From the NCBI GenBank assembly GCA_964603725.1, contig CAZRWW010000001.1, positions 69,634-133,633 on the forward strand: 64,000 bases of DNA, in the 5' to 3' direction. The notes beneath the pieces were generated by a model, which did no database searches, was not told where the DNA came from, and saw only the letters and a program-made list of their open reading frames with translations. Positions 9,948 to 22,512 of the stretch are shown here, piece after piece. This DNA comes from an uncultured bacterium (GTDB lineage: Bacteria; Eisenbacteria; RBG-16-71-46; CAIMUX01; WJJG01). Every line of letters begins with the position of its first letter. Position 1 is the stretch's first letter. The translations under genes and the position numbers were made by a program.

Positions 9948-9957
9948 CGTGGGCGAC

Positions 9958-11334
9958 ATGAGCGCGAGCGGCCCCGCACGGCTGTTCAACCGGAACTTCA
10001 CGCTGCTCTGGCAGGCCCAGTTGGTCAGCCAGATTGGCAACCAGCTCCACGCGGTGGCGATGATGTTCTGGGTCAAGCACGCCACCGGGTCCGCCACGCT
10101 GATGGGCACGCTCATGATGGTCGCGATGCTGCCTGGGGTGCTGCTCGGGCCCCTGGGCGGCACGCTGGCCGATCGCTTCTCGCGCCGTTCGATCATCATC
10201 GCCAGCGACCTGGCGCGAGGCTTGCTCGTGCTCTCGCTGGCGGCGCTCCTGTTCCTCCGGCCGCAGGCGACCGGCCAGCAGGTGGTGTGGCTCTTCTTCA
10301 TCGGGATCAGCGCGGCGGTGCTGGGCGCCTTCTTCCGTCCGGCGGTCAGCGCCGCCGTACCCGATCTGGTGCCACGCGAGCGGCTGGCGGCGGCGAACTC
10401 CCTGCTGCAATCGAGCTACCAGCTCACCACCTTCGTCGGCCAGGGAATCGGCGGCACGCTCTTTCGTTTGCTGGGCGCGCCGGCGCTCTTCCTTATCGAC
10501 GGGCTCACTTACATCGCCTGCGCCATCGCCGAGTGCTTCGTGCGGATACCCCAGAGCCTGCCCGAGCGGGCGGGCAGCGCGCGGGAGTTCTTCGCCAAGT
10601 TCGCCGCCGAGACGCGCGCGGGCTTCCGCTACGTCTGGAGGCAACGCGGGCTGCGCAGCCTCTTCGGCGCGGCGGCGCTACTCAACTTCCTCTTCTCGCC
10701 GCTGGTGGTCATGCTGCCCTTCTATGTCGAAGATCATCTGCTCACCGCGCCGGGGGTGCGCGCCACGCCGGACTGGCTGGGATTCCTGCTGGCCGCCATG
10801 GGTATCGGCGCCCTGATCGGCTACGGCCTGGCGGGCGCGCTGCGCCTGCCCGGCCGCCGGCGGGCGGCGCTGTCGATCGGGTCGCTGTGGCTGGTCTGCG
10901 CGGCCATGGGCGCGGCGGGTCTGACCGACCGCGCGATCGTGGCGCTGGCCCTCTTCCTGCTCATGGGGGCCGCCAGCGGCATCGTCAACATCGGCATCGC
11001 GACGACCTTGCAGCTCACCACGCCCGGCGAGATCCGCGGGCGCGTCTTCGGGCTGCTGGGCACGCTCGCCGGCGGGCTCGCCCCGATCGGCATGGGCTTG
11101 GCGGGGATCGTCGTCGACGCGGTGGGACACGACATCCCGCTCATCCTGCGCGCGTGCGGGCTGGCCGCCGTGCTCGCCATGGTGCCGATCGCGCTCGATC
11201 GCTCGCTCTGGTCGTTCCTGGCCTACGAAGCACCGGCGCAGTCAGGCCCGGCCGCGGAGACCGGAGGGGCGGCGCCGGCCGCCTCGGCCTCGGATGCGGC
11301 CCGCGCCGGCGGTTCTACAGACTCCCGAGCTTGA
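9958..11334 (+). CDS. MFS transporter (EntS/YbdA-like efflux family)
   Basis: NFTLLWQAQLVSQIGNQLH... and multiple TM helices. A GxLaDRxgrR motif is GGTLADRFSRR. The track start GTG at 9949 is in frame, and ATG at 9958 is preferred. The low-complexity C-tail overlaps the convergent CHAT gene by about 20 nt. Confidence 0.88.
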   Translation: MSASGPARLFNRNFTLLWQAQLVSQIGNQLHAVAMMFWVKHATGSATLMGTLMMVAMLPGVLLGPLGGTLADRFSRRSIIIASDLARGLLVLSLAALLFLRPQATGQQVVWLFFIGISAAVLGAFFRPAVSAAVPDLVPRERLAAANSLLQSSYQLTTFVGQGIGGTLFRLLGAPALFLIDGLTYIACAIAECFVRIPQSLPERAGSAREFFAKFAAETRAGFRYVWRQRGLRSLFGAAALLNFLFSPLVVMLPFYVEDHLLTAPGVRATPDWLGFLLAAMGIGALIGYGLAGALRLPGRRRAALSIGSLWLVCAAMGAAGLTDRAIVALALFLLMGAASGIVNIGIATTLQLTTPGEIRGRVFGLLGTLAGGLAPIGMGLAGIVVDAVGHDIPLILRACGLAAVLAMVPIALDRSLWSFLAYEAPAQSGPAAETGGAAPAASASDAARAGGSTDSRA

Positions 11335-14242
11335 CCGCGTACGCGGCCCACGTGAACGGGTGCCGGGCGCCCCGGGAACCCTGCAGGTAGGCGCGCTGGG
11401 CCTCGGACAGCGCCTGTTCGGGCGGGGCTCCGTTTCCGGCCCACGCTTGGATGAACCCCCGCATGAGCTCGGCGGCCTCGTCGTCGCGCACGCGCCAGTA
11501 GGTGTCGACCACCGCGGCCGCGCCCGCATCGACGAGCGCGTCGCCCAGGCCCGGCGTGGTCTTCCCGGCTGCTGCATAGGGCGCGCCGCTGGCGCACCCG
11601 GAGAGAACGACCAGCCGGCAGCGCCGCAGATCCCCGGCCCGCACGTCGTCGATGTCCAGATAGGACGCCTCGATCTGCGCTGTGTCCGCGGCCGGGGAGA
11701 GCGGCAGAAAGGTGAGGTACGGCAGCTCCGGGTCGCGGATGAAATGCGCCGCGGCGTAGATGAACGACGCCTGTTCCCAGACCGCAAAGAGAGCCGGCTT
11801 GGTGGCGTCCGCCCCGGTGAAAGTCCGCGCTCCCGGCCGGAGCGCCGCCAGCAGCCTGACCTCGCTCTGCGCCGCCCCCAAGCCGGCCAGGGCCGGGTAG
11901 CGGCGCCGGATCGCGGCGGCGGGCTGCGGATCCGACAGGATCACGCCGGGCCCGGCCGAGTTGGCCGGCCCGCCGCCGCGCTCGAGCCGCAACTGCGCCA
12001 CGGCGTAGCGGGCCACCAGGGGCTCGTAGCCATCGCCGGTGTTCAAGTTGTACGCGGCGAAGGGCAGCAAGCCCAGGAAACCATCCGGCGAGACGATGAC
12101 CTCCGCGATCTCGCGCGGCCCGGCCGCCAGTGAGACCTCGCGCGGCGCGGCCGGCAGCAGGATCTCGGGCGGCAGCAAGGTGGCGGCGATCCCGTGCAGC
12201 AGGCGGGTCAACTCGGGCCCGGGAGGCGCCTCGACGTCCCCCGGATCCTGCGACACCAGCGTCAAGGCTCGGGCCACCTCGGCTCGCAGCTCCTCGGCGG
12301 CGACCGCCAGCGTATCCAGGCGCACGCCGCCCGGACCGGCGCTCCAGCGCAGGAGCGCCCCCGGCGCGATGAGGTAGACGAGGTGCGCCGCGCGCCGCTC
12401 CCGCAGGCGCGCCAGCACGGGAGCGATCAGCGGCTGCACCTGGCCCGCACCCTCGAGGATCCGGCCCGGCTCCGGCCATCGTTCGGGCCGCCCGAAGGCT
12501 GCCGCGCGCGCCGGTCCGGCGGGAACGCCGTTCGGCATGCCTGGCCGGCGGGCGTCGCGCCCCCAGCCCGGGCTCTCCCCCTCGCCCAGAATCAGCGGCA
12601 GCTGCCGCCAGGAGAGCTCGAGCGCGTAGCCGGCAGCCGGATCGTCGCGCAGGAGCTCGTGCAGCGCGTAGCGCAGCTCATCGCAGACGTTCAGGAAGCC
12701 GTAGCCCTGGGCGCCGGCCTCGGCGTGCGCGAGGAACCCTCGCATGCGCGTCAAACCCGCGCGCAGGACCGCGCGCGCGGCCGGGCGGTCGTTCTCGGCC
12801 AGGTGGATTCTCGCCAGGCACGCGTCGTGGAAGATCCAGGCCTCCCGCAGCGCGCGCTCGCCGCCGGGCCCCAGCTCGGCGGCCTGCCGGCGGAAGTCGC
12901 CAAGCGTCTGCAGCGCGGCCGCTTGGTTGCCGAGGTCGCGCAGCGCGAGGGCCAGCACGATGAGGAATCGTCCGCGCGTGGCCGGCAAGGGGCCCGCGGC
13001 GCTCTGCACCAGCCCACGGCCGATGACGGGCAGCGCCGGGCCGGGACGCCCGTTGGCGAGCAGGCCCTGACTCCACGCGTAGAGCAGCTGCAAGTAGTCG
13101 TAGCGGTTGGGCAGCCCGCGCAGCTCGCGCTCGAGGCGCTCGAAGATCGGCAGCGCCTCGTCGACGCGGCCGAGGGACATCAGGTATCGCGCTTCCATCT
13201 CGTCCAGCCGCAGTCCGATGACCCGCTGCTCGACGACGCGCGGCGAGCGGACCGACTCGCGTTGGAGCACGCGCGCCCGTTGGAGCAGCTGCTCGACCAC
13301 CTGCAGGCGGCCGTGCTCGGCGTGGAAGAAGAGCGTCGCCAGGATGAAGCGCAGCTCCAGGTAGCCGCCCTTGTACTCCCGGCAGATTTCCTGGGCCGCG
13401 GTGTGCCGATCGGCCGCCAGCGCCAGGCGGCCCAGGCTGGCGTAGTAGTCGGCGTAATTGGACATGACCGCGGCCGCATGCTCCGGCAGCCGGTGGCGCG
13501 TCGCGATGACCATCGATTCGTTCCAGGTCACGGCCATGGAGTCGATGCGCCCCGCCTCGCGGTGAAACGAGCCCAGCGCTCCCAGGATCTGGGCGGTCAT
13601 GATCGTCAGATCCCCGCGCCGCGCGGCATCCAGCGCGCGGTGCAGGAAGCGCGCGCGCTCCGGCTCGTTGCCCAGCGATGCCATGAACTCCGCCACGGCG
13701 AAGTCGGCCACCGCGGCGGTCATCCAGTCGCCGGCCGATCGGAAGCGCTCCCCGTACGCCCGGAGCAGATCCGTCTTCTCGCCCAGGAGCAGCTCGGGGT
13801 CGAGGTAGACCGCGTTCATCTCCATCTCGAGCCGGCCCAGCTCCGCGCCGGCCTCGGCCGGCAACCCCATCCAGAAGTGATCGTCGCGCAGGAACTCGAC
13901 ACAGCCGTACTGGGAGGCGAGCTGCTGGGACAGGCGGCCGATGTGGGGCATGAGGGCGCGAACGCTGCGCGCGTAGCTCTCGGCGGTGTCGAAAACCAGC
14001 GCATGCCGGAGCGCCAGACGGGCGTCGATCAGCTCCTTGATGCCGGTGTCCGAGCAATAGCGCGCGAAGTCCTCGTCGGCGTCGTGAACCAGCCGCCGCG
14101 CCATGACGGGGTCCAGTTCGGGCGCCAGGGCGAGCAGGCGGTCGGCGGCGTCGTTGGCGCATCCGCACAGCGCGGCGAGGCAGCCGAGCAGCACCAGGCG
14201 GAGGACCGCCTCGAACTTGCGCGCAGCGTCTGGAATCCCCAT
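11315..14242 (-). CDS. CHAT-domain (caspase-like) protease with N-terminal TPR repeats; a probable secreted lipoprotein
   Basis: The C-terminus has RCRLVVLSGCASG...GLGDALVDAGAAAVVDTYWRVRDDEAAELMRGFI, the CHAT catalytic region. TPR-like repeats lie upstream. The likely start is MGIPDAARKFEAVLRLVLLGCLAALCGC (signal plus lipobox LLGC). The track ORF extends to 14446. Confidence 0.8.
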   Translation of the reverse strand: MGIPDAARKFEAVLRLVLLGCLAALCGCANDAADRLLALAPELDPVMARRLVHDADEDFARYCSDTGIKELIDARLALRHALVFDTAESYARSVRALMPHIGRLSQQLASQYGCVEFLRDDHFWMGLPAEAGAELGRLEMEMNAVYLDPELLLGEKTDLLRAYGERFRSAGDWMTAAVADFAVAEFMASLGNEPERARFLHRALDAARRGDLTIMTAQILGALGSFHREAGRIDSMAVTWNESMVIATRHRLPEHAAAVMSNYADYYASLGRLALAADRHTAAQEICREYKGGYLELRFILATLFFHAEHGRLQVVEQLLQRARVLQRESVRSPRVVEQRVIGLRLDEMEARYLMSLGRVDEALPIFERLERELRGLPNRYDYLQLLYAWSQGLLANGRPGPALPVIGRGLVQSAAGPLPATRGRFLIVLALALRDLGNQAAALQTLGDFRRQAAELGPGGERALREAWIFHDACLARIHLAENDRPAARAVLRAGLTRMRGFLAHAEAGAQGYGFLNVCDELRYALHELLRDDPAAGYALELSWRQLPLILGEGESPGWGRDARRPGMPNGVPAGPARAAAFGRPERWPEPGRILEGAGQVQPLIAPVLARLRERRAAHLVYLIAPGALLRWSAGPGGVRLDTLAVAAEELRAEVARALTLVSQDPGDVEAPPGPELTRLLHGIAATLLPPEILLPAAPREVSLAAGPREIAEVIVSPDGFLGLLPFAAYNLNTGDGYEPLVARYAVAQLRLERGGGPANSAGPGVILSDPQPAAAIRRRYPALAGLGAAQSEVRLLAALRPGARTFTGADATKPALFAVWEQASFIYAAAHFIRDPELPYLTFLPLSPAADTAQIEASYLDIDDVRAGDLRRCRLVVLSGCASGAPYAAAGKTTPGLGDALVDAGAAAVVDTYWRVRDDEAAELMRGFIQAWAGNGAPPEQALSEAQRAYLQGSRGARHPFTWAAYAVKLGSL

Positions 14243-14354
14243 CCCCGGGATCGTATCAGAAGGCCAGGAGCCGCAGAATCTCGAACCTACCGCTTGCCTG
14301 GACCCTGGCAGCGCCCTAGGCTGATCAAGGAGCCGGGGCCGAACGGGGCCGACC

Positions 14355-15212
14355 GTGGACACAGACGTCACACCCAAAGTCAGCCAGGATCTGGAGCTCG
14401 TCCGGCGCATCCTGGACGGTTCGCAAGATGCGTGGGAGCAGTTCATCTTGCGCTACTCCGGCCTGATCCACTCCGTCGTGCGCCGGTACCTGTTCGAGCC
14501 CGAGCAAGTGCGCGATGTCTATGTCGAGGTGCTGAGTCGGCTCTACGAAGGCCGCCTGGGCACCTACGAGGGGCGCTCGGCGTTGTCGACCTGGTTGGTG
14601 CTGGTGGCGCGCAGCGTGGCGCTCGACAACCTGCGCCGCCGCTTCGGACGCCGCGAGGTGCCCGGCGGCATCCAGCGCCTGCGCAAGCGCGATCAGCGCG
14701 TCTTCCAGCTCTACTACATCGACGGCCTGAGCTTCGATGCCGTGCGCCACTGGATGTCGCAGCACGGCGAGTCGATCAGCGCTGATGAGCTGGCCGCCGG
14801 CCTGGAGCGCATCGAGAGCTGCATCGACCATCGCACGCTCAAGAGGATCATCTACGACCTGCACGCCCCCTCCGTGGGCGCCGCGTCGGGCCGCATGATG
14901 GAGTTTCTGGATTGGCACCGGGACCGCCAGGAGCGCCTGCGGCGGGAGCGCAATCCGGAGCAGATCTTGATCGACAAGGAGGCCCGCGCCACCGCCGAGC
15001 GCGTACGGGAGCTGCTGGCCGAGCTGCCCGAGGAAGAGCGCCGGGTCCTGACCCTCCGATTCGACCACGGCCGGACGGCGGTGCAGATCGCCGCCGAGAT
15101 GGGATTCGAGAGCCCTCGTCGCTCTTACACCGTTATCGAAAAGGGATTACGGCGCCTGCGCCGTCTGCTGGGAGCTGAGAAGGGCTGTCAGCGGGGGGGC
15201 CAGAAAGGCTGA
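14355..15212 (+). CDS. RNA polymerase sigma-70 family (ECF-like) sigma factor
   Basis: Region 2 is FILRYSGLIHSVVRRYL...LSTWLVLVARSVALDNLRRR. Region 4 is EERRVLTLRFDHGRTAVQIAAEMGFESPRRSYTVIEKGLRRLRR. GTG start per track. Confidence 0.85.
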   Translation: MDTDVTPKVSQDLELVRRILDGSQDAWEQFILRYSGLIHSVVRRYLFEPEQVRDVYVEVLSRLYEGRLGTYEGRSALSTWLVLVARSVALDNLRRRFGRREVPGGIQRLRKRDQRVFQLYYIDGLSFDAVRHWMSQHGESISADELAAGLERIESCIDHRTLKRIIYDLHAPSVGAASGRMMEFLDWHRDRQERLRRERNPEQILIDKEARATAERVRELLAELPEEERRVLTLRFDHGRTAVQIAAEMGFESPRRSYTVIEKGLRRLRRLLGAEKGCQRGGQKG

Positions 15213-15325
15213 TAGTATAGGCGGGTGGCCCGGGAAAGGGTAGTCCCGCCGACGTCTATTCCGTGTGATTCGGCGCTAGGATCCGCCGGGGCGGTGGGTG
15301 GGGCCCACCGGCGGAGAGTGGGAGC

Positions 15326-16270
15326 ATGCTCATGGCCTACCAGGAACACCTCTCGGATGACACCTTGGCCGCCTTGGTGGAGGGCGGGCTGTGCGGCGAA
15401 GAGCAGGCCCGGGCCCGGGAGCACCTCGCCCGGTGCCGGACCTGCATGGCGGCTTACTCCGAGGCGGCCCGCGTCCAGTCGATCTGGCTCGATGAGCCCG
15501 AGATCTTCACCCCGGCCGACGACATCGTGCGCCTCGGCGTCGTTGTGGGGGCGGCCCGTCACGATGCGCTCGCGTCGCGGCCTCCCCGCCGCGTGCCTCG
15601 CCACCGGCAAGCGCCCAGCGGACTGCGGCCGGCTGTGCTCACCTTGGGAGGCGCGGCCGTGGGGCTGGTCGCGGTGCTGATGTGGCTCAGGCCGGGCCTC
15701 CTCGCCCCGGGCCCTCTGCCCGACCGCGGCGTGGTCGCGCTCGTCGAGCGGGCGGCCCAGCGGACGTCGGCCCACGGTATGGTGCTTCCGTTTGGCGACG
15801 GCTTCACGGTCGAGGACATGACCATCTACCGGGCGGGCGCATCCGAGGCCGACCCGGCGCTCAACAGCGCCATTGCGGCCCTCATCGAGAGCTATGAGCG
15901 GACCGAATCCTCGGAGCGCGCCGCGTGCCTGCTGGTCGCCGGCCAGATCGCCGCCGGGCAGCTCGGCAACGCCCGCGCCTTCGTCGCCGAAGCGCTGCGG
16001 CAGCATCCCGGCGATCCTTGCTTGACCACGCTGGCGGCCATCATCGCGTTCCGCGAGAATGATCTGGCGCGCGCCGAGGCGTTGCTCCGCGACGTCGTGG
16101 CGCGCGACCCCGGAAACCTCGTCGCCGGATTCAACCTGGGCCTGCTGCTCACTGAAAGCGGGCGCGCCCATGAAGCGCGGCCCTTCCTCGAGGCGGTCGC
16201 GAGGGCCCGCGCCGGCACGCCTCTCTCCAGTCGCGCCGAGAGTCTCCTCGAGGGTCGCGTTCCCCGTTGA
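15326..16270 (+). CDS. Anti-sigma factor (zinc-finger ZAS type) with one TM helix and C-terminal TPR repeats
   Basis: HxxxCxxC motif EHLARCRTCM. TM segment AVLTLGGAAVGLVAVLMWL. The C-terminus has TPR-like repeats. It lies directly downstream of the sigma factor. Confidence 0.75.
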   Translation: MLMAYQEHLSDDTLAALVEGGLCGEEQARAREHLARCRTCMAAYSEAARVQSIWLDEPEIFTPADDIVRLGVVVGAARHDALASRPPRRVPRHRQAPSGLRPAVLTLGGAAVGLVAVLMWLRPGLLAPGPLPDRGVVALVERAAQRTSAHGMVLPFGDGFTVEDMTIYRAGASEADPALNSAIAALIESYERTESSERAACLLVAGQIAAGQLGNARAFVAEALRQHPGDPCLTTLAAIIAFRENDLARAEALLRDVVARDPGNLVAGFNLGLLLTESGRAHEARPFLEAVARARAGTPLSSRAESLLEGRVPR

Positions 16271-16361
16271 CGATCGCTGAAGGTCTGCCCGCGAGCGGAC
16301 GCCCACCCCGCAGACGACCCGTCGCGCCGCGGGAGCGACCACGCGGGCGCGGCGCCGTGCG

Positions 16362-16400
16362 CCCAAAAGCCAGACGCGCACCCCCGAGAGGGCGCGCGTC
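16362..16400 (-). terminator. Intrinsic terminator downstream of paralog 1
   Basis: GC hairpin GACGCGC(ACCC)...(GGGC)GCGCGTC. On the minus strand it is followed by GGCUUUUGGGCG. Confidence 0.6.
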
Positions 16401-16426
16401 TGATTCACTCAGCTTCAGTCCCAGGA

Positions 16427-17233
16427 CTACTGGAAGAGAGCCTTCACCTGACCCCACGTCGAGCTCTCGACCGGCGAGATGCCGCCGCTGCCCTCGAGGA
16501 TGAAGGGCACGCCCTGCGGGGCGCCGCTGCCGGTGTCGATGAGCTGCTGCCACAGGCCGGAGGCGTACTGCAACGCATCACCCGTCGTGGTCTGGCCCAG
16601 GAAGACGATCGGGTTGCCCCAAGGTCCCGAGGCCAGCGTGCCTGTGTGATCGTAGGCGATCCAGTACCAGCCCGCACTGAGGACGAGCGGCGGACTGAAA
16701 GCGCACACGTTGGCCATGATTGGGCGGTTGGTGTCCATCATGGCGGTGTCGAGCACCCGATAGCAGCCCGACCACGCGGTCGTCACCAACCGGTTGGTGA
16801 CCTGATCCCCGTAGATGACCGTGCCGCCGGGAGGCGCGTCATCCAAGATCTCGAAGTACGCGCCCGTGAAGGTGGACGTCGTCGAGGATCCGGTCTGATA
16901 GCCGAAGAACGTGACCTGGTTGATCGTCCAGGTGCAGCCCGTGGGAACCACGAAGTCGTCGGCAAAGCGATAGGGAATCGTGTGGTTGAAGTTGAAGCCG
17001 TAGACCGACATGCCAAGGGCCGTCTGGACCACCGACGCGTTGGCGCCGCCGTAGCCGCCGCCCGGATGCGTGACGAACGGGCCGTTGTCATACAGGACAT
17101 CCCGCGAGGGAGTCCAGACCGGGCCGCCGTTGGGCGCGATGAAGCCCGTGACCGCCTCGGTGTCAACGGCGAGGTCCGCGAACACTGGGGCAGCTAGGAC
17201 TGCCAGCGCGAACAACACTGCAAAGCTGCGCAT
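16427..17233 (-). CDS. Secreted hypothetical protein, paralog 1 of 3, ending in the WGQVKALFQ C-terminal tag
   Basis: Signal peptide MRSFAVLFALAVLAAPVFA. It is about 85% identical to the two upstream paralogs and ends ...SSTWGQVKALFQ*. AGGAGG lies upstream of the ATG. Confidence 0.8.
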   Translation of the reverse strand: MRSFAVLFALAVLAAPVFADLAVDTEAVTGFIAPNGGPVWTPSRDVLYDNGPFVTHPGGGYGGANASVVQTALGMSVYGFNFNHTIPYRFADDFVVPTGCTWTINQVTFFGYQTGSSTTSTFTGAYFEILDDAPPGGTVIYGDQVTNRLVTTAWSGCYRVLDTAMMDTNRPIMANVCAFSPPLVLSAGWYWIAYDHTGTLASGPWGNPIVFLGQTTTGDALQYASGLWQQLIDTGSGAPQGVPFILEGSGGISPVESSTWGQVKALFQ

Positions 17234-17363
17234 CTTCTAACCTCCTGTCGACTTTGCACCGCCGCAGGGAACAGCGACTCCTGGTTTCGCACCAAGCACT
17301 GCGCACCCGCGGCCGCGCACTCACTGAACACAAGGTTTGATGCAGCGGCCGGATCACTCTGCT

Positions 17364-17402
17364 GTGAGACCCTTTCCCATTGCTGGGCGACCTGACTCTC
17401 AC
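17364..17402 (-). promoter_or_regulatory. Conserved inverted-repeat element at the predicted 5' end of the paralog transcripts (copy 1)
   Basis: GTGAGA-N27-TCTCAC with an internal CCCA-GCAA-UGGG (GNRA-capped) hairpin. It starts 5-8 nt after the -10 box. Copies lie at 18562..18600 and 19761..19798. Confidence 0.5.
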
Positions 17403-17404
17403 AT

Positions 17405-17440
17405 CCATAATGATACCGACGACCTGTAGCTGTGTTCAAG
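17405..17440 (-). promoter_or_regulatory. Putative sigma70-like promoter for paralog 1
   Basis: Minus strand TTGAAC-N18-TATCAT. A homologous TTGAAT-N18-TAGGAT lies at 18608..18637, and TTGAAG-N18-TAGAAT at 19806..19835. Confidence 0.45.
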
Positions 17441-17554
17441 CACAATGACAGTGATTCGGGTGTCCCCTCCACGGGGTTCATCCAGCTGACGGGGGAGTGC
17501 CGGAAGCGCGGCCTGATCATCAATTCTGTTTACGGCCGTAACCAGTCACGCGCG

Positions 17555-17591
17555 CCCAAAAGCAGACGCGCGCCCCTCGGGGGCGCGCGTC
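17555..17591 (-). terminator. Intrinsic terminator downstream of paralog 2
   Basis: Perfect 12-bp stem GACGCGCGCCCC/GGGGCGCGCGTC with a 3-4 nt loop. On the minus strand it is followed by UGCUUUUGGG. Confidence 0.75.
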
Positions 17592-17619
17592 CGACGGAAC
17601 TCGGCTTCCGTTCCTCAAG

Positions 17620-18432
17620 CTACTGGAACAGAGCCTTCACCTGACCCCACGTCGAGCTCTCGACCGGCGAGATGCCGCCGCTGCCCTCGAGAATGAAGGG
17701 CACGCCCTGGCCGGTGCCAGTGCCGGTGTCGATGAGCTGATTCCACATCCCCGAGGACGCGGTGTACTGGAGGCCGTCACCCGTCGTCGTCATGCCCAGG
17801 ATCGTGACCGGCGGGCACCAGGGCCCGGAGGCCAGCGTTCCCGTGCAATCGAACGCGATGTAGTACCAGCCGGGTCCCAGGACCAGGGGCGGAGTGACCG
17901 CGCACACGTTCGCCATAACCGGACGGTTGGTGTCCATCATGGCGGTGTCGAGCACGCGGTACATGTTCGCCCAGGCCGTCGTGACCAGGCGGTTGGTCAC
18001 CGTGTCACCCCAGATCACGGCGCCGCCGGGAGGCACGTCATCGAAGATCCGGATGTACGCACCCGTGTAGCTGGATGTCGTCCCGGAGCCTGTCTGATAG
18101 CCGAAGATCGTGACCTGGTTGATCGTCCAGGTGCAGCCCTGGGGAACCACAAAGTCATCGGCCATCGTGTTCGGCAGCGTGTGCTGGAAGCCGAAGCCGT
18201 ACGTCGACAGCCCCAGAGCGGTCTGGAGCACCGACGCGTTGGCGCCGCCGTAGCCGCCACCCGGGTGGGTGACCAGCGGGCCGTTGTCGTACAGGACATC
18301 CCGTGAGGGAGTCCAAATCGGGCCGCCGTTGGGCGCGATGAAGCCCGTGACCGTCTCGGTGTCGGCTTCGAAGTCCGCCAGCACCGGAGCGACCAAGGCT
18401 GCCAGCGCGAACAACACTGCAAAGCTGCGCAT
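17620..18432 (-). CDS. Secreted hypothetical protein, paralog 2 of 3, ending in the WGQVKALFQ tag
   Basis: MRSFAVLFALAALVAPVLA signal. Same family as 16427..17233. Ends ...SSTWGQVKALFQ*. Confidence 0.8.
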   Translation of the reverse strand: MRSFAVLFALAALVAPVLADFEADTETVTGFIAPNGGPIWTPSRDVLYDNGPLVTHPGGGYGGANASVLQTALGLSTYGFGFQHTLPNTMADDFVVPQGCTWTINQVTIFGYQTGSGTTSSYTGAYIRIFDDVPPGGAVIWGDTVTNRLVTTAWANMYRVLDTAMMDTNRPVMANVCAVTPPLVLGPGWYYIAFDCTGTLASGPWCPPVTILGMTTTGDGLQYTASSGMWNQLIDTGTGTGQGVPFILEGSGGISPVESSTWGQVKALFQ

Positions 18433-18561
18433 CTTCTAACCTCCTGTCGACACTTGCACGCTACAGAGATTGTCGCCCTGTGGCTTCCTGCCCAGTGACA
18501 CATCCCCGTAGCCGCGCACTCACTGAACGTAAGGTTGATGCAGCGGCCGGATCACTCTGCT

Positions 18562-18600
18562 GTGAGACCCTTTCCCATTGCTGGGTGACCTGGTTCTCAC
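18562..18600 (-). promoter_or_regulatory. Conserved inverted-repeat 5' element, copy 2
   Basis: Homologous to 17364..17402 with 3 substitutions. Confidence 0.5.
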
Positions 18601-18607
18601 ACCAGCG

Positions 18608-18637
18608 ATCCTAATGGCACTTGAGAGCTGCATTCAA
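18608..18637 (-). promoter_or_regulatory. Putative sigma70-like promoter for paralog 2
   Basis: Minus strand TTGAAT-N18-TAGGAT, at the same relative position as in the other copies. Confidence 0.4.
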
Positions 18638-18751
18638 GCGCCTTTTTGCAGTAACTCGGGAGCCCCCTCCACGGGGTCCATCCGACGGCCGGGAGAGCAC
18701 CGGGAGTGCGGTCTGGTCGTCATTTTGGTTTACGGTTGTAACTAACCGTCC

Positions 18752-18793
18752 TCGCCTAAATGCAGACGCGCACCCCCGAGGGGCGCGCGTCTG
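18752..18793 (-). terminator. Intrinsic terminator downstream of paralog 3
   Basis: Stem CAGACGCGCACCC/GGGCGCGCGTCTG with one mismatch. On the minus strand it is followed by CAUUUAGG. Confidence 0.55.
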
Positions 18794-18817
18794 ATTCACT
18801 CAGCCTCAGTCCCAGGA

Positions 18818-19630
18818 CTACTGGAACAGAGCCTTCACCTGACCCCAGGTCGAGCACTCGACCGGCGAGCAGCCGCCCGTGCCCTCGAGAATGAAGGGCA
18901 CGCCCTGGCCGGTGCCAGTGCCGCTGTCGATGGCCTGATTCCACATGCCCGAGGACGCGGTGTACTGGAGAGCGTCACCCGTCGTCGTGATGCCCAGGAT
19001 CGAGACCGGCGGGCACCAGGGCCCGGAGGACAGCGTTCCCGTGCAATCGAAGGCGATGTAGTACCAGCCCGCGCTCAGAACCAGAGGCGGATCCACGGCG
19101 CACACGTTCGCCATGACCGGACGGTTGGTGTCCATCATGGACGTGTCGAGCACGCGGTACATGTTCGCCCAGGCCGTCGTGACCAGGCGGTTGGTGACCG
19201 TGTCACCCCAGATCACGGCGCCGCCGGGAGGCGCATCGTCGAAGATACGGATGTACGCACCCGTGAAGCTCGACGTCGTCCCGGAGCCGGTCTGGTAACC
19301 GAAGATCGTGACCTGGTTGATGGTCCAGGTCTGGCCCTGGGGAACCACGAAGTCATCGGCCATCGTGTTCGGCAGCGTGTGCTGGAAACCGAAGCCGTAC
19401 AACGAAAGTCCCAGAGCGGTCTGGAGCACCGACGCGTCCGCGCCGCCGTAGCCGCCACCCGGGTGGGTGACCAGCGGGCCGTTGTCGTACAGGACATCCC
19501 GTGAGGGAGTCCAAATCGGGCCGCCGTTGGGCGCGATGAAGCCCGTGACCGTCTCGGTGTCGGCTTCGAAGTCCGCCAGCACCGGAGCGACCAAGGCTGC
19601 CAGCGCGAACAACACTGCAAAGCTGCGCAT
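18818..19630 (-). CDS. Secreted hypothetical protein, paralog 3 of 3, ending in the WGQVKALFQ tag
   Basis: MRSFAVLFALAALVAPVLA signal. Ends ...CSTWGQVKALFQ*. Confidence 0.8.
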   Translation of the reverse strand: MRSFAVLFALAALVAPVLADFEADTETVTGFIAPNGGPIWTPSRDVLYDNGPLVTHPGGGYGGADASVLQTALGLSLYGFGFQHTLPNTMADDFVVPQGQTWTINQVTIFGYQTGSGTTSSFTGAYIRIFDDAPPGGAVIWGDTVTNRLVTTAWANMYRVLDTSMMDTNRPVMANVCAVDPPLVLSAGWYYIAFDCTGTLSSGPWCPPVSILGITTTGDALQYTASSGMWNQAIDSGTGTGQGVPFILEGTGGCSPVECSTWGQVKALFQ

Positions 19631-19760
19631 CTTCTAACCTCCTGTCGACTCCCGCGCCGCCACAGAAACCAACGTCCCCCGGCTTGCTGCCAGGGGGCGC
19701 TTCCCTGCGGCCGCGCACTCACAGAACCACATGTTGTTGCAGCGGCCAGAACACTCTACC

Positions 19761-19798
19761 GTGAGACCCTTCCCATTGCTGGGTGACCTGGCTCTCAC
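19761..19798 (-). promoter_or_regulatory. Conserved inverted-repeat 5' element, copy 3
   Basis: Homologous to 17364..17402 with a 1-nt deletion. Confidence 0.5.
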
Positions 19799-19805
19799 AC
19801 CCAAG

Positions 19806-19835
19806 ATTCTACCTTGTCCCGGGCGCTCTCTTCAA
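19806..19835 (-). promoter_or_regulatory. Putative sigma70-like promoter for paralog 3
   Basis: Minus strand TTGAAG-N18-TAGAAT. Confidence 0.45.
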
Positions 19836-19965
19836 GCCCTTTCTGCGCCTTTGTGGCGTGCCGTAAATGAGTGTTTCAAATTGCCTAAAGTGTTCTTATA
19901 TAATTGGTTGTGTGCCTTGTGGTCACCGGTCGCCACCGCCCGGAACCCTGGTCCGGGGCAGCCAC

Positions 19966-22512
19966 CTACTCCCACCAACGAATCAGTCGGGTAACGTGAC
20001 GATTACCCATGTCAACATGGCTGGGCATGACCCGCACCGCGAATCCCTCGCGCCCGCTGCGCCGGCACTCGATCTCGCCCCGGAACAGGTGTACGCGCTC
20101 ACCCTCGTGACCCTCGAGGCGCATCACGACGGTCTCAGGCCCGGCGAGCTGGCCGCGAGCATCGAGATGCCCGGTCACGATCTCGACGACCACGTCATCC
20201 GGCTGGAGCGCGCCGAGCTCGATCTGGCACCAGACGCCGATCTCCTGGCCGACCTTGGCCTCCTCGGTCCCGCTGGCGTGGACGCTGCGAATGCGCACGT
20301 TGTGCCATTCGCGCCCGACCCGCTCCTGCCAGGCGGCCAGCGCCCGGGCCCGCGCCCCCTTCTCGGCGGTGAGCGTCTGGTACCGCTCGGCGGTGGCCGC
20401 GTAGTACTGGCTCACGTAGTCGCACACCATGCGATTGGTGTTGAAGACCGGGCAGAGCTGGCCCATCGCCGCCTTCATCTTGGCGATCCACCCGCGCGGC
20501 AGGCCATCCTTGCCGCGGGCGTAGAACAGCGGCACGATGTCGTTCTCCAGCAGATCGTAGATCGACGCCGACTCGACCGCATCCTGGTAGTCCTCGTCCT
20601 GGTACTCCTCCCCGTGGCCGATCGCCCAGCCCACCTCGCGCGTGTAGGCCTCATCCCACCAGCCGTCCAGCACGCTCAGGTTCGGCGCCCCGTTGGCCAC
20701 CGCCTTCATGCCGCTCGTGCCGCTGGCCTCGCGCGGCCGGCGGGGCGTGTTGAGCCAGACGTCGCACCCCTGCACGAGATAGCGCGCGATCGCCATGTCG
20801 TAGTTCTCGAGGAAGATCACCCGGCGCCGGATGCGCTCATCGCGCACGTGGTGGATCAGATCGCGAATCAGTCGCTTGCCATTGTCGTCCTGCGGATGCG
20901 CCTTGCCCGCGAAGATGATCTGCACGGGCGTCTCGGGATGGCAGAGGATGCGCACCAGCCGCTCGAAATCGCGGAACAGCAGGGTGCCCCGCTTGTACGG
21001 CGCGAATCTCCGGGCGAATCCGATCGTCAGCGTGCGCGGATCGAGCACCTCGCCGGCCATGCGGATCTCGTTGTCGGGCGCGCCGCGGTTCTCGAGCTGG
21101 CGCGCCAGCGTCTTGCGGGCGAAGGCCACCAGCCGCTCGCGCCGCCGCTCGTGCGTGCGCCAGAGCTCCTCATCGGGAATCTCCGCCACGCCTTCCCAGA
21201 CCGACTGGTCGGACGGATCCTCTGTCCAGCGCGGCCCGAGGTAGCGATCGAAGAGCGAGGCCAGGTCGAAGGAGATCCAGGAGCGGGCGTGAACGCCGTT
21301 GGTGATGTGGCCGATGGGGAGCTCCTCCTCCGGGGCGCCCGGCCACAGGTGGGCGAACATCCGCCGCGAGACCTGCCCGTGCAGGCGGCTGACGCCGTTG
21401 ACGCAGTTGGCCAGCCGAATCGCCAGTACGGCCATGCTGAACTCGTCGCGCCGGACGTCGCGGCCGAGGTCGACCAGCCGCTCGACCGCAACGCCCATCC
21501 GATCGGCATAGGGCTTCAAGTAGACCTGCACGAGCGGCACCGGGAAGACGTCGATTCCCGCCGGCACCGGCGTGTGCGTCGTGAAGACATTGCCCGCTTC
21601 GGCCGCCAGACGCGCCTCCTCGAACGAGAGCCCCGCCGTCTCCATCAGCGCGCGAATGCGCTCGATGGCCAGGAAGGCCGAATGGCCCTCGTTCATGTGA
21701 CACACGGTCGGCCGGATGCCCAGCGCCTCGAGGGCCCGCAGGCCCCCCACGCCGAGCAGCAACTCCTGGCGGATGCGCATCTCCTTGTCGCCGCCGTAGA
21801 GCTCGTCCGCGATGTCCTGATCGGCCTGGCTGTTGGCGGGGACATTGGTATCGAGCAGGATCAGCGGAATCCGGCCGACCTGCGCCCGCCAGACCTGCGC
21901 CACCACCTGGCGATCGGCCATGTCGACCAGCACGCGCAGCGGCGACCCGTCGGCCTTGCGCTCGAGGCTGATCGGCATCGTCGGGAAATCGTTGACCGGG
22001 TAGCTCTCATGCTGCCACCCGTCGTTGGTCAGGTACTGCCGGAAGTAGCCCTTCTGATACAGCAGGCCGACGCCTACCAGCGGGATGCCCAGCTCGGAGG
22101 CCGCCTTCAGGTGATCGCCGGCCAGGATGCCCAGGCCGCCCGAGTAGATCGGCATGCACTCGGTGATCGCGAACTCGGCCGAGAAGTAGGCGACGTTGCA
22201 CTGGTCTCCGTGCCGCAATCCCTCGCACATCCAGCCCTGGCGCTCCAGGTGGCGATGGAGCTCGCCCGCGACGCGCCCCATGTGGACGTGGAAGCCGTCG
22301 TCCTTGGCAAGTTGTTCGAGCCGGTGCTGGTCGACGTCGCCCAGCATCTTCACGGGATTGTGGCCGGAGGTCTCCCAAAGGTTCTTGTCGATGCGCCGAA
22401 AAAGCTCGATGCTGTCGTGGTCCCAGGCCCAGCGCAGGTTGTAGGCGATTTCCTTCAAGGGCAGAAGGGAATCGGGCAGGGCCGGGGTGACGTGGAACTG
22501 CTGAATACGCAT
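19966..22512 (-). CDS. glgP: Alpha-glucan phosphorylase (GlgP family, about 850 aa, PLP-dependent)
   Basis: MRIQQFHVTPALPDSLLPLKEIAYNLRWAWDHDSIELFRRID...FSAEFAITECMPIYSGGLGILAGDHLKAASELGIPLVGVGLLYQKGYFRQ... and PLP-site GTSGMKAVANGAPNLSVLDGWWDEAY. Confidence 0.95.
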   Translation of the reverse strand: MRIQQFHVTPALPDSLLPLKEIAYNLRWAWDHDSIELFRRIDKNLWETSGHNPVKMLGDVDQHRLEQLAKDDGFHVHMGRVAGELHRHLERQGWMCEGLRHGDQCNVAYFSAEFAITECMPIYSGGLGILAGDHLKAASELGIPLVGVGLLYQKGYFRQYLTNDGWQHESYPVNDFPTMPISLERKADGSPLRVLVDMADRQVVAQVWRAQVGRIPLILLDTNVPANSQADQDIADELYGGDKEMRIRQELLLGVGGLRALEALGIRPTVCHMNEGHSAFLAIERIRALMETAGLSFEEARLAAEAGNVFTTHTPVPAGIDVFPVPLVQVYLKPYADRMGVAVERLVDLGRDVRRDEFSMAVLAIRLANCVNGVSRLHGQVSRRMFAHLWPGAPEEELPIGHITNGVHARSWISFDLASLFDRYLGPRWTEDPSDQSVWEGVAEIPDEELWRTHERRRERLVAFARKTLARQLENRGAPDNEIRMAGEVLDPRTLTIGFARRFAPYKRGTLLFRDFERLVRILCHPETPVQIIFAGKAHPQDDNGKRLIRDLIHHVRDERIRRRVIFLENYDMAIARYLVQGCDVWLNTPRRPREASGTSGMKAVANGAPNLSVLDGWWDEAYTREVGWAIGHGEEYQDEDYQDAVESASIYDLLENDIVPLFYARGKDGLPRGWIAKMKAAMGQLCPVFNTNRMVCDYVSQYYAATAERYQTLTAEKGARARALAAWQERVGREWHNVRIRSVHASGTEEAKVGQEIGVWCQIELGALQPDDVVVEIVTGHLDARGQLAGPETVVMRLEGHEGERVHLFRGEIECRRSGREGFAVRVMPSHVDMGNRHVTRLIRWWE

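What the first reader, a model, noticed from the sequence alone, without database searches (positions are those of the whole stretch)
11315..16270. Secreted CHAT-TPR caspase-like protease placed divergently to an ECF sigma and ZAS-type TPR anti-sigma pair, next to the secreted paralog array
A protein of about 975 aa combines TPR repeats with a C-terminal CHAT protease domain. It is probably a lipoprotein. It is divergent from an ECF-like sigma factor and its zinc-binding anti-sigma factor, and the anti-sigma itself ends in TPR repeats. CHAT proteases act in regulated proteolysis and in several defence and signalling systems. The arrangement suggests an envelope signalling module in which protease activity and sigma release are coupled. 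The tandem secreted paralogs sit immediately downstream.
Basis: inference. Interest (0 to 1): 0.55.

Follow-up and report, generated by a model that had tools for sequence, protein, structure and literature searches.

The report
Sigma/anti-sigma pair with dedicated caspase-like lipoprotein
A membrane-anchored caspase-like protease gene is inherited together with a sigma factor and its membrane-spanning inhibitor in many uncultured bacteria, which suggests that the protease cuts the inhibitor to switch on the sigma factor; this looks like a two-protein version of the recently solved DdvA system.

Summary
Window 11315-14242(-) encodes a 975-aa lipoprotein with a helical-repeat (TPR) region and a CHAT domain (Pfam E 1e-39). 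Its His833/Cys883 dyad is invariant in 19 homologs. It lies divergent to an ECF-type sigma (14355-15212) and a zinc-motif, single-pass, TPR-ended anti-sigma (15326-16270).

The three genes form a conserved module. Of 17 genome loci carrying this sigma subfamily (mostly Candidatus Eisenbacteria), all 17 have the anti-sigma and 14 have the full-length TPR-CHAT. None of 16 ordinary ECF control loci has one. Gene order varies, and pairwise identities of the three proteins track each other (r 0.91-0.94).

The closest solved structure to an AlphaFold model is M. xanthus DdvA, an anti-sigma fused to a periplasmic TPR-CHAT domain.

Best reading, inferred and not shown: the lipoprotein is a trans-acting site-1 protease, or sensor-protease, for the anti-sigma.

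Three of six unrelated secreted TPR-CHAT genes also sit in sigma, anti-sigma, CHAT operons, so the class is broad. I did not find it described in the papers I could search.

The neighbouring paralog array is not part of the module. No sigma-specific promoter was identified.

The parts
11315..14242 (-). TPR-CHAT lipoprotein gene (975 aa)
   Evidence: GC3 0.90. Pfam CHAT E 1e-39. Identical NCBI gene call. AF2 model pLDDT 85, pTM 0.83.
14159..14242 (-). Lipoprotein signal peptide, residues 1-28. Lipobox L25-C26-G27-C28, with Cys28 at 14159-14161.
   Evidence: Read from the sequence. An aligned lipobox Cys is present in 18 of 19 homologs.
12578..14155 (-). All-helical TPR-like repeat region, residues about 30-555
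   Evidence: AF2 secondary structure. TPR_MalT/TPR_12 hits. Aligns with the DdvA scaffold plus TPR region in Foldseek.
12482..12577 (-). Low-confidence, poorly conserved linker, residues 556-587
   Evidence: pLDDT below 50. Conservation minimum in the family alignment.
11330..12136 (-). CHAT caspase-like domain (Pfam match, residues 703-971). Catalytic His833 at 11744-11746 and Cys883 at 11594-11596.
   Evidence: Pfam. Dyad invariant in 19 homologs. Coordinates verified.
14250..14261 (-). Extended -10-type promoter TTCTGATACGAT, 7 nt before the CHAT ATG, which implies a leaderless mRNA
   Evidence: The same (T)CTGnTAnnAT-N7-8-ATG arrangement precedes the CHAT gene in L001, L003, L005, L007, L010, L011 and L016.
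14293..14322 (+). Sigma70-type promoter CTTGCC-N17-TAGGCT upstream of the sigma gene
   Evidence: Conserved upstream of sigma orthologs. Unique in the window in this exact form. The same general type precedes unrelated genes.
14355..15212 (+). ECF-type sigma factor (285 aa): sigma2 at 14445-14642, conserved insert at 14643-14954, sigma4 at 14997-15164
   Evidence: Pfam and NCBIfam. Family alignments. AF2 pLDDT 86. The insert aligns to sigma4 in hhalign, probability 84-89%.
15326..16270 (+). Single-pass anti-sigma (314 aa): zinc-motif anti-sigma domain at 15347-15445, TM at 15632-15688, conserved juxtamembrane motif (GMVLP...YR169AG) at 15761-15838, TPR domain at 15893-16225
16427..19630 (-). 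Three secreted paralogs (16427-17233, 17620-18432, 18818-19630). They are neighbours, not part of the conserved module.

Best explanation
The three genes form one envelope-to-cytoplasm signalling module.

The anti-sigma holds the sigma factor at the inner face of the membrane through its N-terminal zinc-motif domain. Past a single transmembrane helix it exposes a conserved juxtamembrane segment and a small TPR domain to the periplasm.

The TPR-CHAT protein is exported and lipid-anchored in that same compartment. On an unknown signal, probably sensed through its large TPR superhelix, its His833/Cys883 caspase-like site cuts the periplasmic part of the anti-sigma. This is a site-1 cleavage. A candidate position is next to the near-invariant Arg169 in the YR(A/S)G motif. 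An RseP-type site-2 protease and cytoplasmic proteases would then finish the job and free the sigma factor.

This is a two-polypeptide (trans) counterpart of the autoproteolysis model proposed for M. xanthus DdvA.

Shown here: gene content, conservation of the triad, predicted topology, the intact dyad, and a separase/craspase/DdvA-type TPR-CHAT fold with DdvA as the top hit.

Inferred: physical interaction, cleavage of the anti-sigma, the cleavage site, the site-2 step, the signal and the regulon.
For: 1. Linkage. The triad is conserved in metagenome loci L001, L003, L005 and L007, with CHAT identity of 52-80%. In L006 (30% identity) the anti-sigma gene is co-directional with the CHAT gene and overlaps it by 14 bp; the contig ends at the 5' end of the anti-sigma gene, so its sigma gene, if present, was not captured.

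2. Genome scan seeded with the sigma only. 17 loci have a full-length sigma of this subfamily. The anti-sigma is present in 17/17 and a full-length TPR-CHAT in 14/17. One of the three exceptions is a 2.6-kb contig, one has only 2.2 kb upstream, and one has a frameshifted sigma. By contrast, 0 of 16 ordinary ECF loci from the same scan have a CHAT hit.

3. The gene order differs between loci (divergent, co-directional, convergent) while the linkage persists.

4. Pairwise identity matrices of CHAT, sigma and anti-sigma correlate at r = 0.91-0.94 over 18 loci. These include two modules from one MAG (L014 and L016).

5. Same compartment. A lipobox is present in 18/19 CHAT homologs. The anti-sigma has a positive cluster before its single TM and about 190 periplasmic residues.

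6. The catalytic His/Cys are invariant.

7. The AF2 model (pLDDT 85) has the DdvA anti-sigma as its top PDB match (8rw5/8rot: E 2e-12, TM 0.45-0.49 over about 986 columns), ahead of separases and Csx29.

8. The DdvA paper proposes CHAT-mediated site-1 cleavage followed by RseP (PMC11506125). Csx29 cleaves Csx30 to relieve inhibition of an ECF sigma (PMC10028731).

9. A juxtamembrane motif G[ML]V[LI]P...YR[AS]G is conserved in 22 anti-sigma homologs.

10. Three of six sampled unrelated secreted TPR-CHAT genes lie in operons of the form ECF sigma, then single-pass anti-sigma-like protein, then TPR-CHAT. One of those anti-sigmas is zf-HC2-positive.
Against: There is no experimental or structural evidence for contact or cleavage.

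The similarity to DdvA is at the level of fold only. Neither a single-sequence nor a profile search of PDB sequences retrieves DdvA, and the TM-score is moderate.

In DdvA itself the CHAT-dependent cleavage has never been observed (PMC11506125).

Conserved adjacency would equally be expected if the protease were a co-regulated output or an accessory sensor.

The CHAT gene has its own conserved promoter, so its expression is not obligatorily coupled to that of the sigma operon.

Two sigma/anti-sigma loci (L015, L017) show no CHAT in the sequence available.

The site-2 protease was not looked for.
Confidence: 0.5

Rival explanations
1. The TPR-CHAT lipoprotein is an accessory sensor or partner of the anti-sigma, in the manner of RseB. 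It binds the anti-sigma's periplasmic TPR or juxtamembrane motif and controls access of another site-1 protease. Its own proteolytic activity is directed at a signal protein (a damaged envelope protein or a phage or competitor protein), not at the anti-sigma.
For: The same linkage, topology and co-evolution data apply. Both partners carry TPR modules that typically mediate protein-protein binding. The DdvA authors also consider that the TPR-CHAT senses a protein signal.
Against: An invariant catalytic dyad alongside a conserved anti-sigma juxtamembrane motif is more simply explained by direct cleavage. No second protease gene is conserved in the module.
Confidence: 0.2
2. The CHAT lipoprotein is an output of the system. 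It would be a secreted protease transcribed, or co-transcribed, under the sigma factor that remodels or attacks envelope or extracellular proteins and has no role in releasing the sigma.
For: ECF operons often carry their effector genes next to them. In L006, L016, L043, L044 and L047 the CHAT gene lies downstream of, and co-directional with, the anti-sigma gene, preceded by the sigma gene wherever the contig extends that far. The sigma's cognate promoter is unknown, so control of the CHAT promoter cannot be excluded.
Against: The CHAT promoter is a conserved extended -10 element with a leaderless start. It shares no specific motif with the sigma promoter. The three-way co-variation, and the retention of the gene through rearrangements over sigma identities down to 39%, are tighter than is usual for a regulon member. 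The only characterised relative by fold is itself part of an anti-sigma.
Confidence: 0.2
3. The adjacency carries no functional meaning. It is inherited synteny among closely related genomes.
For: Flanking genes (MFS, FKBP, DUF6880, S9 peptidase) are also syntenic in the closest relatives.
Against: In L005 and the more distant loci the flanks differ but the triad stays. Gene order changes while the linkage persists. The figure is 14/17 against 0/16 in control ECF loci. The same arrangement recurs in unrelated TPR-CHAT lineages.
Confidence: 0.03

Closest known systems
DdvA-DdvS of Myxococcus xanthus (PDB 8ROT/8RW5; PMC11506125)
   Same: An ECF-type sigma is held by an anti-sigma with an N-terminal zinc-binding anti-sigma domain and one TM helix. 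A periplasmic TPR-CHAT module with a His-Cys dyad is present. DdvA is the best structural match to the window protein. The model proposed for DdvA is CHAT-mediated site-1 cleavage followed by RseP.
   Different: In DdvA, everything is one polypeptide of about 990 aa that forms a dimer. Here the TPR-CHAT is a separate lipoprotein and the anti-sigma has only a small TPR domain. There is no detectable sequence homology. The sigma belongs to a different subfamily with an insert of about 100 aa. No CBASS/CRISPR island lies next to it, and PADLOC finds nothing. The phylum differs: relatives that carry a taxon label are mostly Candidatus Eisenbacteria rather than Myxococcota.
RseA/DegS/RseP sigma-E pathway of E. 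coli, and RsiW/PrsW of B. subtilis (regulated intramembrane proteolysis)
   Same: A single-pass anti-sigma has a periplasmic domain that blocks site-2 cleavage. A dedicated extracytoplasmic protease is presumed to start the cascade.
   Different: The site-1 proteases there are a PDZ serine protease and a membrane metalloprotease. They are not caspase-like and are not encoded as a conserved partner gene of the sigma operon. Cleavage here is hypothetical.
Type III-E Craspase: Csx29 (TPR-CHAT), Csx30 and CASP-sigma (PMC10028731)
   Same: A TPR-CHAT protease cleaves an inhibitor of an ECF sigma factor. The fold class is the same (Foldseek E 2e-10 to 3e-8).
   Different: That system is cytoplasmic, RNA-guided and bound to Cas7-11, and Csx30 is not a membrane anti-sigma. 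No CRISPR components are present here.
Separase (eukaryotic TPR/helical-repeat plus CHAT-like caspase domain)
   Same: Overall architecture and catalytic dyad are shared. The only PDB sequence hit to the CHAT domain is separase (E 0.03), and Foldseek gives E 3e-12. Separase cuts after Arg, which fits the conserved Arg169 candidate.
   Different: Separase is eukaryotic, cytoplasmic or nuclear, inhibited by securin, and unrelated to sigma factors.

Membership tests
CHAT / clan CD caspase-like peptidases (PF12770) | Match to the family profile above the curated threshold | tested here: met
   137 bits against a cut-off of 24, E 1.1e-39, residues 703-971.
CHAT / clan CD caspase-like peptidases (PF12770) | Catalytic His-Cys dyad | tested here: met
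   His833 (AAHF[IV]RD) and Cys883 (LSGCA[ST]G) are invariant in 19 homologs.
CHAT / clan CD caspase-like peptidases (PF12770) | Caspase/separase fold | tested here: met
   AF2 pLDDT 85. Foldseek finds DdvA, separases and Csx29, all with probability 1.00.
CHAT / clan CD caspase-like peptidases (PF12770) | Proteolytic activity | not testable with these tools
   Needs biochemistry.
Bacterial lipoproteins | Signal peptide ending in a lipobox [LVI][ASTVIC][GAS]C | tested here: met
   L25-C26-G27-C28 follows a basic n-region and a hydrophobic core. An aligned Cys is present in 18/19 homologs. No dedicated predictor was run.
ECF (group 4) sigma factors | Sigma2 and sigma4 domains of ECF type | tested here: met
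   Sigma70_r2, Sigma70_r4_2 and TIGR02937 (E 2e-21). The top Foldseek hits are SigW, RpoE, SigK and AlgU.
ECF (group 4) sigma factors | Only a short linker between sigma2 and sigma4, with no additional domain | tested here: not met
   A conserved insert of about 100 aa (residues about 97-200) is folded into helices. It shows sigma4-like similarity (hhalign probability 84-89%; Sigma70_r4_2 E 0.01). There is no Sigma70_r3 hit.
ECF (group 4) sigma factors | Cognate anti-sigma encoded directly downstream | tested here: met
   17/17 genome loci and all the metagenome loci.
ECF (group 4) sigma factors | Autoregulated ECF-type promoter (for example GGAAC-N16-CGT) | tested here: inconclusive
   The conserved promoter is of the CTTGCn-N17-TAGGCT type, the same general kind as promoters of unrelated genes. 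The cognate motif is unknown.
Zinc-binding (ZAS) class I anti-sigma factors | H-x3-C-x2-C motif plus an upstream ligand | tested here: met
   H8, H33, C37 and C40 are invariant in 6 orthologs.
Zinc-binding (ZAS) class I anti-sigma factors | Match to zf-HC2 (PF13490) above threshold | tested here: not met
   18.9 bits against a cut-off of 22.2, E 0.0016. There is a weak RseA N-terminal hit, E 3e-4.
Zinc-binding (ZAS) class I anti-sigma factors | Zinc binding and sigma binding | not testable with these tools
   Needs biochemistry, or a complex prediction, which was not available.
DdvA-like TPR-CHAT anti-sigma factors | Anti-sigma domain, TM helix and periplasmic TPR-CHAT in one polypeptide | tested here: not met
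   Two separate genes on opposite strands. The same split is seen in all 18 complete modules.
DdvA-like TPR-CHAT anti-sigma factors | Structural correspondence of the periplasmic TPR-CHAT | tested here: met
   8rw5/8rot is the top hit: E 2e-12, TM 0.45-0.49, about 986 aligned columns.
DdvA-like TPR-CHAT anti-sigma factors | Detectable sequence homology to DdvA | tested here: not met
   phmmer and an 18-sequence profile against PDB sequences do not retrieve DdvA.
DdvA-like TPR-CHAT anti-sigma factors | Control of an adjacent antiviral defence island | tested here: not met
   The neighbours are housekeeping or secreted-protein genes. PADLOC finds nothing. The regulon itself is unknown.
DdvA-like TPR-CHAT anti-sigma factors | Dimeric arrangement and absence of the three-helix active-site motif | not tested
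   Model coordinates could not be inspected, and no multimer prediction was available.
Regulated intramembrane proteolysis pathways | Site-1 cleavage of the anti-sigma ectodomain followed by site-2 (RseP) cleavage | not testable with these tools
   Inference only. An S2P homolog was not searched for.

The most novel reading that the evidence does not exclude
Secreted or lipid-anchored TPR-CHAT proteins are a widespread class of dedicated caspase-like site-1 proteases for single-pass anti-sigma factors, and I did not find them described in the papers I could search. They would be encoded as the third gene of sigma/anti-sigma modules in several phyla. DdvA would be a rare fused form. The family of this window (relatives mostly labelled Candidatus Eisenbacteria) would additionally use a new sigma architecture: sigma2, a degenerate sigma4-like insert, then sigma4.
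Probability: 0.35. Interest if true: 0.78.

Novelty: new variant of a known kind. Interest (0 to 1): 0.6.

Why it matters
Release of ECF sigma factors by proteolysis of their anti-sigma is a central bacterial signalling mechanism. The site-1 protease is known for only a few systems, and none of those is caspase-like.

The one characterised TPR-CHAT anti-sigma, DdvA, could not be shown to cleave itself, because its signal is unknown and its protease and substrate are the same chain.

A naturally split system gives a protease and a substrate that can be purified, mutated and mixed separately. That makes the idea that a caspase-like CHAT starts intramembrane proteolysis directly testable.

The recurrence of sigma, anti-sigma, secreted TPR-CHAT operons in unrelated lineages suggests a general principle, and a function for many of the abundant, unexplained secreted CHAT proteins of environmental bacteria.

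Tried and rejected
1. Sequence-level kinship to DdvA. Searches of PDB sequences with phmmer and with an 18-sequence profile found only TPR proteins and separase. The DdvA relationship therefore rests on fold alone.

2. A sigma-specific promoter shared by the sigma, CHAT and paralog genes. The sigma has CTTGCC-N17-TAGGCT, the CHAT gene has an extended -10 leaderless element, and the paralogs have CTTGAA-N17-TAGAAT plus a 170-nt leader. All are sigma70-like, and the first type also precedes unrelated genes. No ECF-type GGAAC/CGT motif was seen.

3. The paralogs as part of the module. This was rejected: tblastn finds them only in the window and in L001/L002.

4. The sigma insert as sigma3. There is no Sigma70_r3 hit. 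hhalign points instead to a sigma4-like segment. Group-3 sigmas align over longer spans in Foldseek, but with TM of about 0.25-0.3. This remains unresolved.

5. A known defence system. PADLOC gave no hits.

6. Known RNA families. Rfam gave nothing, either across the whole window at gathering thresholds or in 14200-20000 at E up to 1.

7. Widening the CHAT family with a profile word-index search returned only generic TPR-CHATs, so the structure prediction used a shallow alignment.

8. Calls that failed:
- The window's own contig is not on record for the context look-up.
- The supplements of the ECF re-classification paper are not held. Its main text does not mention CHAT.

9. An alternative protease in the two CHAT-less loci (L015, L017). 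None was found.
Full report
**What is there**

The window has about 70% G+C. A third-position GC filter gives a clean gene map around the finding:
- an MFS transporter at 9949-11334(+);
- a long ORF at 11315-14446(-);
- a sigma factor at 14355-15212(+);
- an anti-sigma at 15326-16270(+);
- three paralogs of 268-270 aa at 16427-17233, 17620-18432 and 18818-19630 (all on the minus strand);
- a glycogen-phosphorylase-like gene at 19966-22512(-).

The long ORF really starts at the ATG at 14242. This gives 975 aa, identical to the gene call stored from NCBI. Pfam finds a CHAT domain (E 1.1e-39, 137 bits against a cut-off of 24), preceded by sub-threshold TPR_MalT and TPR_12 hits.

The N-terminus, MGIPDAARKFEAVLRLVLLGCLAALCG-C28, has the shape of a lipoprotein signal peptide.

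The sigma has Sigma70_r2, Sigma70_r4_2 and TIGR02937 (sigma70-ECF, E 2e-21).

The anti-sigma has:
- an H8-x24-H33-x3-C37-x2-C40 motif, invariant in six orthologs;
- a weak zf-HC2 hit, below threshold;
- one hydrophobic span, residues 103-121, preceded by a cluster of Arg residues;
- a C-terminal TPR_19 domain (E 1e-11; E 4e-14 on the ectodomain alone).

**Is the neighbourhood conserved?**

Full-length relatives of the CHAT protein are few in the word-indexed protein search: P0002 to P0006, at 80, 67, 52, 52 and 30% identity. Their contigs are informative.

L001 (80%), L003 (67%), L005 (52%) and L007 (52%) all carry sigma, anti-sigma and CHAT in the same divergent arrangement.

In L005 the other flanks are different genes. 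The triad is therefore what is retained, not the general synteny.

In L001 an IS1-like transposase has inserted between the sigma and CHAT genes.

In L006 (30%) the gene upstream of CHAT is an anti-sigma homolog. It is co-directional with the CHAT gene and overlaps it by 14 bp; the contig ends at the anti-sigma gene's 5' end, so no sigma gene could be seen.

I then searched 185,579 species-representative genomes using the sigma alone, so that the test was not circular. Seventeen loci encode a full-length member of this sigma subfamily (39-80% identity). Where a taxon label is given, most are Candidatus Eisenbacteria MAGs.

Profile searches of the six-frame ORFs of those loci gave:
- the anti-sigma directly downstream in 17 of 17;
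- a full-length TPR-CHAT homolog in 14 of 17.

The three exceptions are a 2.6-kb contig (L024), a locus with only 2.2 kb upstream (L017), and a locus in which the sigma is split by a frameshift (L015). No substitute protease is seen in the last two.

As a control, the same scan also returned 16 ordinary ECF loci. None of them has a CHAT hit.

Gene order varies. It is divergent in most loci, co-directional downstream in L016, and convergent in L025.

Pairwise identity matrices of the three proteins over 18 complete modules correlate at r = 0.91-0.94. Two of those modules, L014 and L016, come from one MAG.

Chance adjacency can be set aside.

**Is the protease intact and in the right place?**

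In an alignment of 19 family members the catalytic His (AAHF[IV]RD, His833) and Cys (LSGCA[ST]G, Cys883) are invariant.

Eighteen of the 19 have a hydrophobic N-terminus ending in a lipobox-like x-x-[GAS]-C at the aligned position. The remaining one has a signal-anchor-like helix.

The protease is therefore predicted to sit in the same extracytoplasmic compartment as the roughly 190-residue ectodomain of the anti-sigma.

Across 22 anti-sigma homologs the otherwise variable segment just outside the membrane contains a conserved motif, G[ML]V[LI]P...YR[AS]G, with Arg169 nearly invariant. In L012 and L013 a Gly/Ser/Pro-rich insert of about 55 residues separates the two halves of the motif, which suggests an exposed loop.

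This is a candidate recognition or cleavage site. Clan CD enzymes such as separase cut after Arg (established knowledge; see also PMC11506125). The assignment is an inference.

**Structure**

AlphaFold2 was run on a 29-row alignment. It gave mean pLDDT 85 and pTM 0.83:
- an all-helical repeat region, residues about 30-555;
- a disordered linker, residues 556-587;
- an alpha/beta CHAT domain.

Foldseek against the PDB puts the M. xanthus transmembrane anti-sigma DdvA first (8rw5: E 2e-12, TM 0.45/0.49 over 986 columns; also 8rot). Human and yeast separases and the type III-E Csx29 TPR-CHAT follow.

Sequence searches of the PDB, whether with the single protein or with an 18-sequence profile, do not find DdvA. 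The relationship is one of architecture and fold, not recent common descent.

**What is known**

Four papers in the searchable library hold all of 'CHAT domain', 'ECF' and 'anti-sigma'.

The key one is Bernal-Bernal et al. 2024 (PMC11506125). DdvA has a cytoplasmic zinc-bound anti-sigma domain, one TM helix and a periplasmic scaffold plus TPR-CHAT. The authors propose that signal-induced CHAT activity clips the juxtamembrane linker in trans within a dimer, acting as site-1 protease, and that RseP acts afterwards. They could not observe this cleavage. [quoted passage not shown]

Csx29, a cytoplasmic TPR-CHAT, cleaves Csx30 and so relieves inhibition of an ECF sigma (PMC10028731).

The main text of the 2021 ECF re-classification does not mention CHAT. 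Its supplements were not available.

I found no description of a stand-alone periplasmic TPR-CHAT encoded with a sigma/anti-sigma pair.

**How it most likely works**

The simplest model consistent with all of this is that the lipoprotein is the dedicated, signal-activated site-1 protease of the anti-sigma. This is the DdvA model split over two polypeptides.

Shown: the conserved triad, co-variation, predicted co-localisation, the intact dyad, the DdvA-like fold and a conserved juxtamembrane motif.

Inferred: binding, cleavage, the site, the site-2 step, the signal and the regulon.

I put this at about 0.5. The rivals are:
- a sensor or partner role without cleavage of the anti-sigma (0.2);
- a pure output role (0.2);
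- meaningless synteny (0.03).

**Promoters**

The sigma gene is preceded by CTTGCC-N17-TAGGCT (14293-14322). This is conserved upstream of its orthologs and unique in the window in this form. However, promoters of the same CTTGnn-N17-TAGnnT kind precede unrelated genes. It is probably a housekeeping-type promoter.

The CHAT gene is preceded by TTCTGATACGAT (14250-14261, minus strand), 7 nt before its ATG. This is an extended -10 element implying a leaderless mRNA. It is conserved in L001, L003, L005, L007, L010, L011 and L016.

The paralogs each have CTTGAA-N17-TAGAAT-like promoters and a conserved leader of about 170 nt.

No shared, non-housekeeping motif emerges. The sigma's target promoter and regulon remain unknown.

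**The sigma is unusual**

About 80 clusters of this sigma subfamily exist, 275-310 aa long and 40-89% identical to the window protein. All carry a conserved insert of about 100 residues between sigma2 and sigma4.

The AF2 model (pLDDT 86) folds the insert into helices.

Foldseek's best hits are ECF sigmas over about 165 columns. Group-3 sigmas align over about 260-290 columns but at low TM.

Profile-profile comparison aligns insert residues 103-140 with sigma4 residues 218-255 (probability 84-89%, E 2e-6). The control against sigma2 gives 0.2%. Pfam gives Sigma70_r4_2 at E 0.01 on the insert alone and no Sigma70_r3 hit.

The protein is therefore ECF-like, but it fails the criterion of a short linker with only two domains.

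**A wider class**

I looked up the contexts of six generic TPR-CHAT proteins, 1016-1340 aa long and only about 27-34% identical over 17-37% of the query. Most of the 18 such proteins whose N-termini were printed have signal peptides.

Three of the six lie in operons of the form ECF sigma (206-212 aa), then a single-pass protein of 218-273 aa, then TPR-CHAT. These are L043, L044 and L047.
- The middle proteins of L043 and L044 have an N-terminal anti-sigma-like segment and one TM helix.
- The middle protein of L047 passes the zf-HC2 threshold.
- P0013 and P0018 have lipoboxes, and P0109 has a Sec signal peptide.

The other three sit next to a CHASE2 Ser/Thr kinase, next to a secretin, or next to nothing telling.

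The sample is small, but it indicates that the sigma, anti-sigma, secreted TPR-CHAT module extends beyond the Eisenbacteria-labelled family: L044 comes from a MAG labelled Pseudomonadota, while L043 and L047 carry no taxon label.

**The paralog array**

The paralogs are found only in the window and in its closest relative. They have their own promoters, leaders and terminators.

Their core of about 210 residues is a very widespread domain with no Pfam match. A search of 1.84 billion cluster representatives gave 2,217 hits at E up to 1e-3 and 880 at E up to 1e-30. The hits are mostly inside large secreted multidomain proteins; in nine of them that I scanned, the partner domains included Por_Secre_tail, CARDB, GEVED and BACON.

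The paralogs are neighbours of the module, not members of it.

**Verdict**

This is a new variant of a known kind: a proteolytically controlled sigma/anti-sigma system with a TPR-CHAT protease. The variant is split into a separate lipoprotein, carries an atypical sigma, and is not linked to a defence island.

Interest is 0.6. It gives an experimentally tractable trans version of the untested DdvA mechanism, and hints at a broad, undescribed role for secreted CHAT proteases. All of the mechanism is still inference.

Noticed in passing
window 17234-17412, 18433-18611, 19631-19809 (all minus strand); L001 2853-3031, 4098-4276, 5367-5545: Each secreted paralog is preceded by a sigma70-like promoter and a highly conserved 5' leader of about 170 nt. 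The leader has a conserved 5' hairpin (GUGAGA..CC/GGGUCUCAC) and a long GC-rich stem. Five predicted pairs show compensatory changes. There is no Rfam match. It may be a cis-regulatory RNA, but only six closely related copies were available.
   Followed up: partly
window 16427-17233, 17620-18432, 18818-19630 (minus strand): The core of the paralogs, about 210 residues (roughly residues 40-255), is a very widespread domain with no Pfam family. A search of 1.84e9 cluster representatives gave 2,217 hits at E up to 1e-3 and 880 at E up to 1e-30. It occurs mostly inside large secreted proteins of up to about 3,500 aa; nine that I scanned carried Por_Secre_tail, CARDB, GEVED or BACON domains.
   Followed up: partly
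window 14643-14954 (+), sigma residues 97-200: The sigma subfamily (about 80 clusters) carries a conserved helical insert. Its first part aligns with sigma4 (hhalign probability 84-89%), which suggests a degenerate internal duplication of sigma4. This architecture was not mentioned in the main text of the ECF re-classification paper I could read.
   Followed up: partly
window 14250-14261 (minus strand), and the equivalent sites in L001, L003, L005, L007, L010, L011 and L016: The CHAT genes have a conserved extended -10 element, (T)CTGnTAnnAT, 7-8 nt before the start codon. This implies leaderless translation.
   Followed up: partly
window 15209-15218 (+): CTGATAGTAT overlaps the sigma stop codon, in the 113-bp gap before the anti-sigma gene. 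It could be an internal promoter for the anti-sigma. The same pattern scan did not find it at the corresponding position in the other loci.
   Followed up: no
L001 8647-9801: An IS1-like transposase ORF (E 3e-7) has inserted between the sigma and CHAT genes in the closest relative. The CHAT promoter element is left intact.
   Followed up: partly
window 11315-11334: The convergent MFS transporter and CHAT genes overlap by 20 bp at their 3' ends. The MFS-CHAT adjacency is kept in L001, L003 and L007 but not in L005.
   Followed up: no
L012 6249-7460 and L013 7319-8644: The anti-sigma orthologs in these two loci carry a Gly/Ser/Pro-rich low-complexity insert of about 55 residues, exactly between the conserved GLVLPG and YRNG juxtamembrane motifs.
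   Followed up: no
L043 10703-12325; L047 7580-10219: In two of the unrelated sigma, anti-sigma, TPR-CHAT operons, a further caspase-like gene follows within a few genes downstream. It is Peptidase_C14 in L043 (two intervening ORFs) and a second CHAT protein in L047 (one short ORF). This hints at protease cascades.
   Followed up: no
L005 5157-5495 and L007 2379-2729: The sigma-CHAT intergenic region is about 340 bp in these two loci, against 112 bp in the window. It is nearly identical between them and contains C-rich and G-rich runs that look like an inserted repeat element.
   Followed up: no
L003 3500-5140, L005 169-2472, L006 3844-5454, L007 10248-11708: Secreted proteins with a C-terminal FlgD_ig-type domain recur next to the module in several loci. 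This may only reflect their abundance in these genomes.
   Followed up: no
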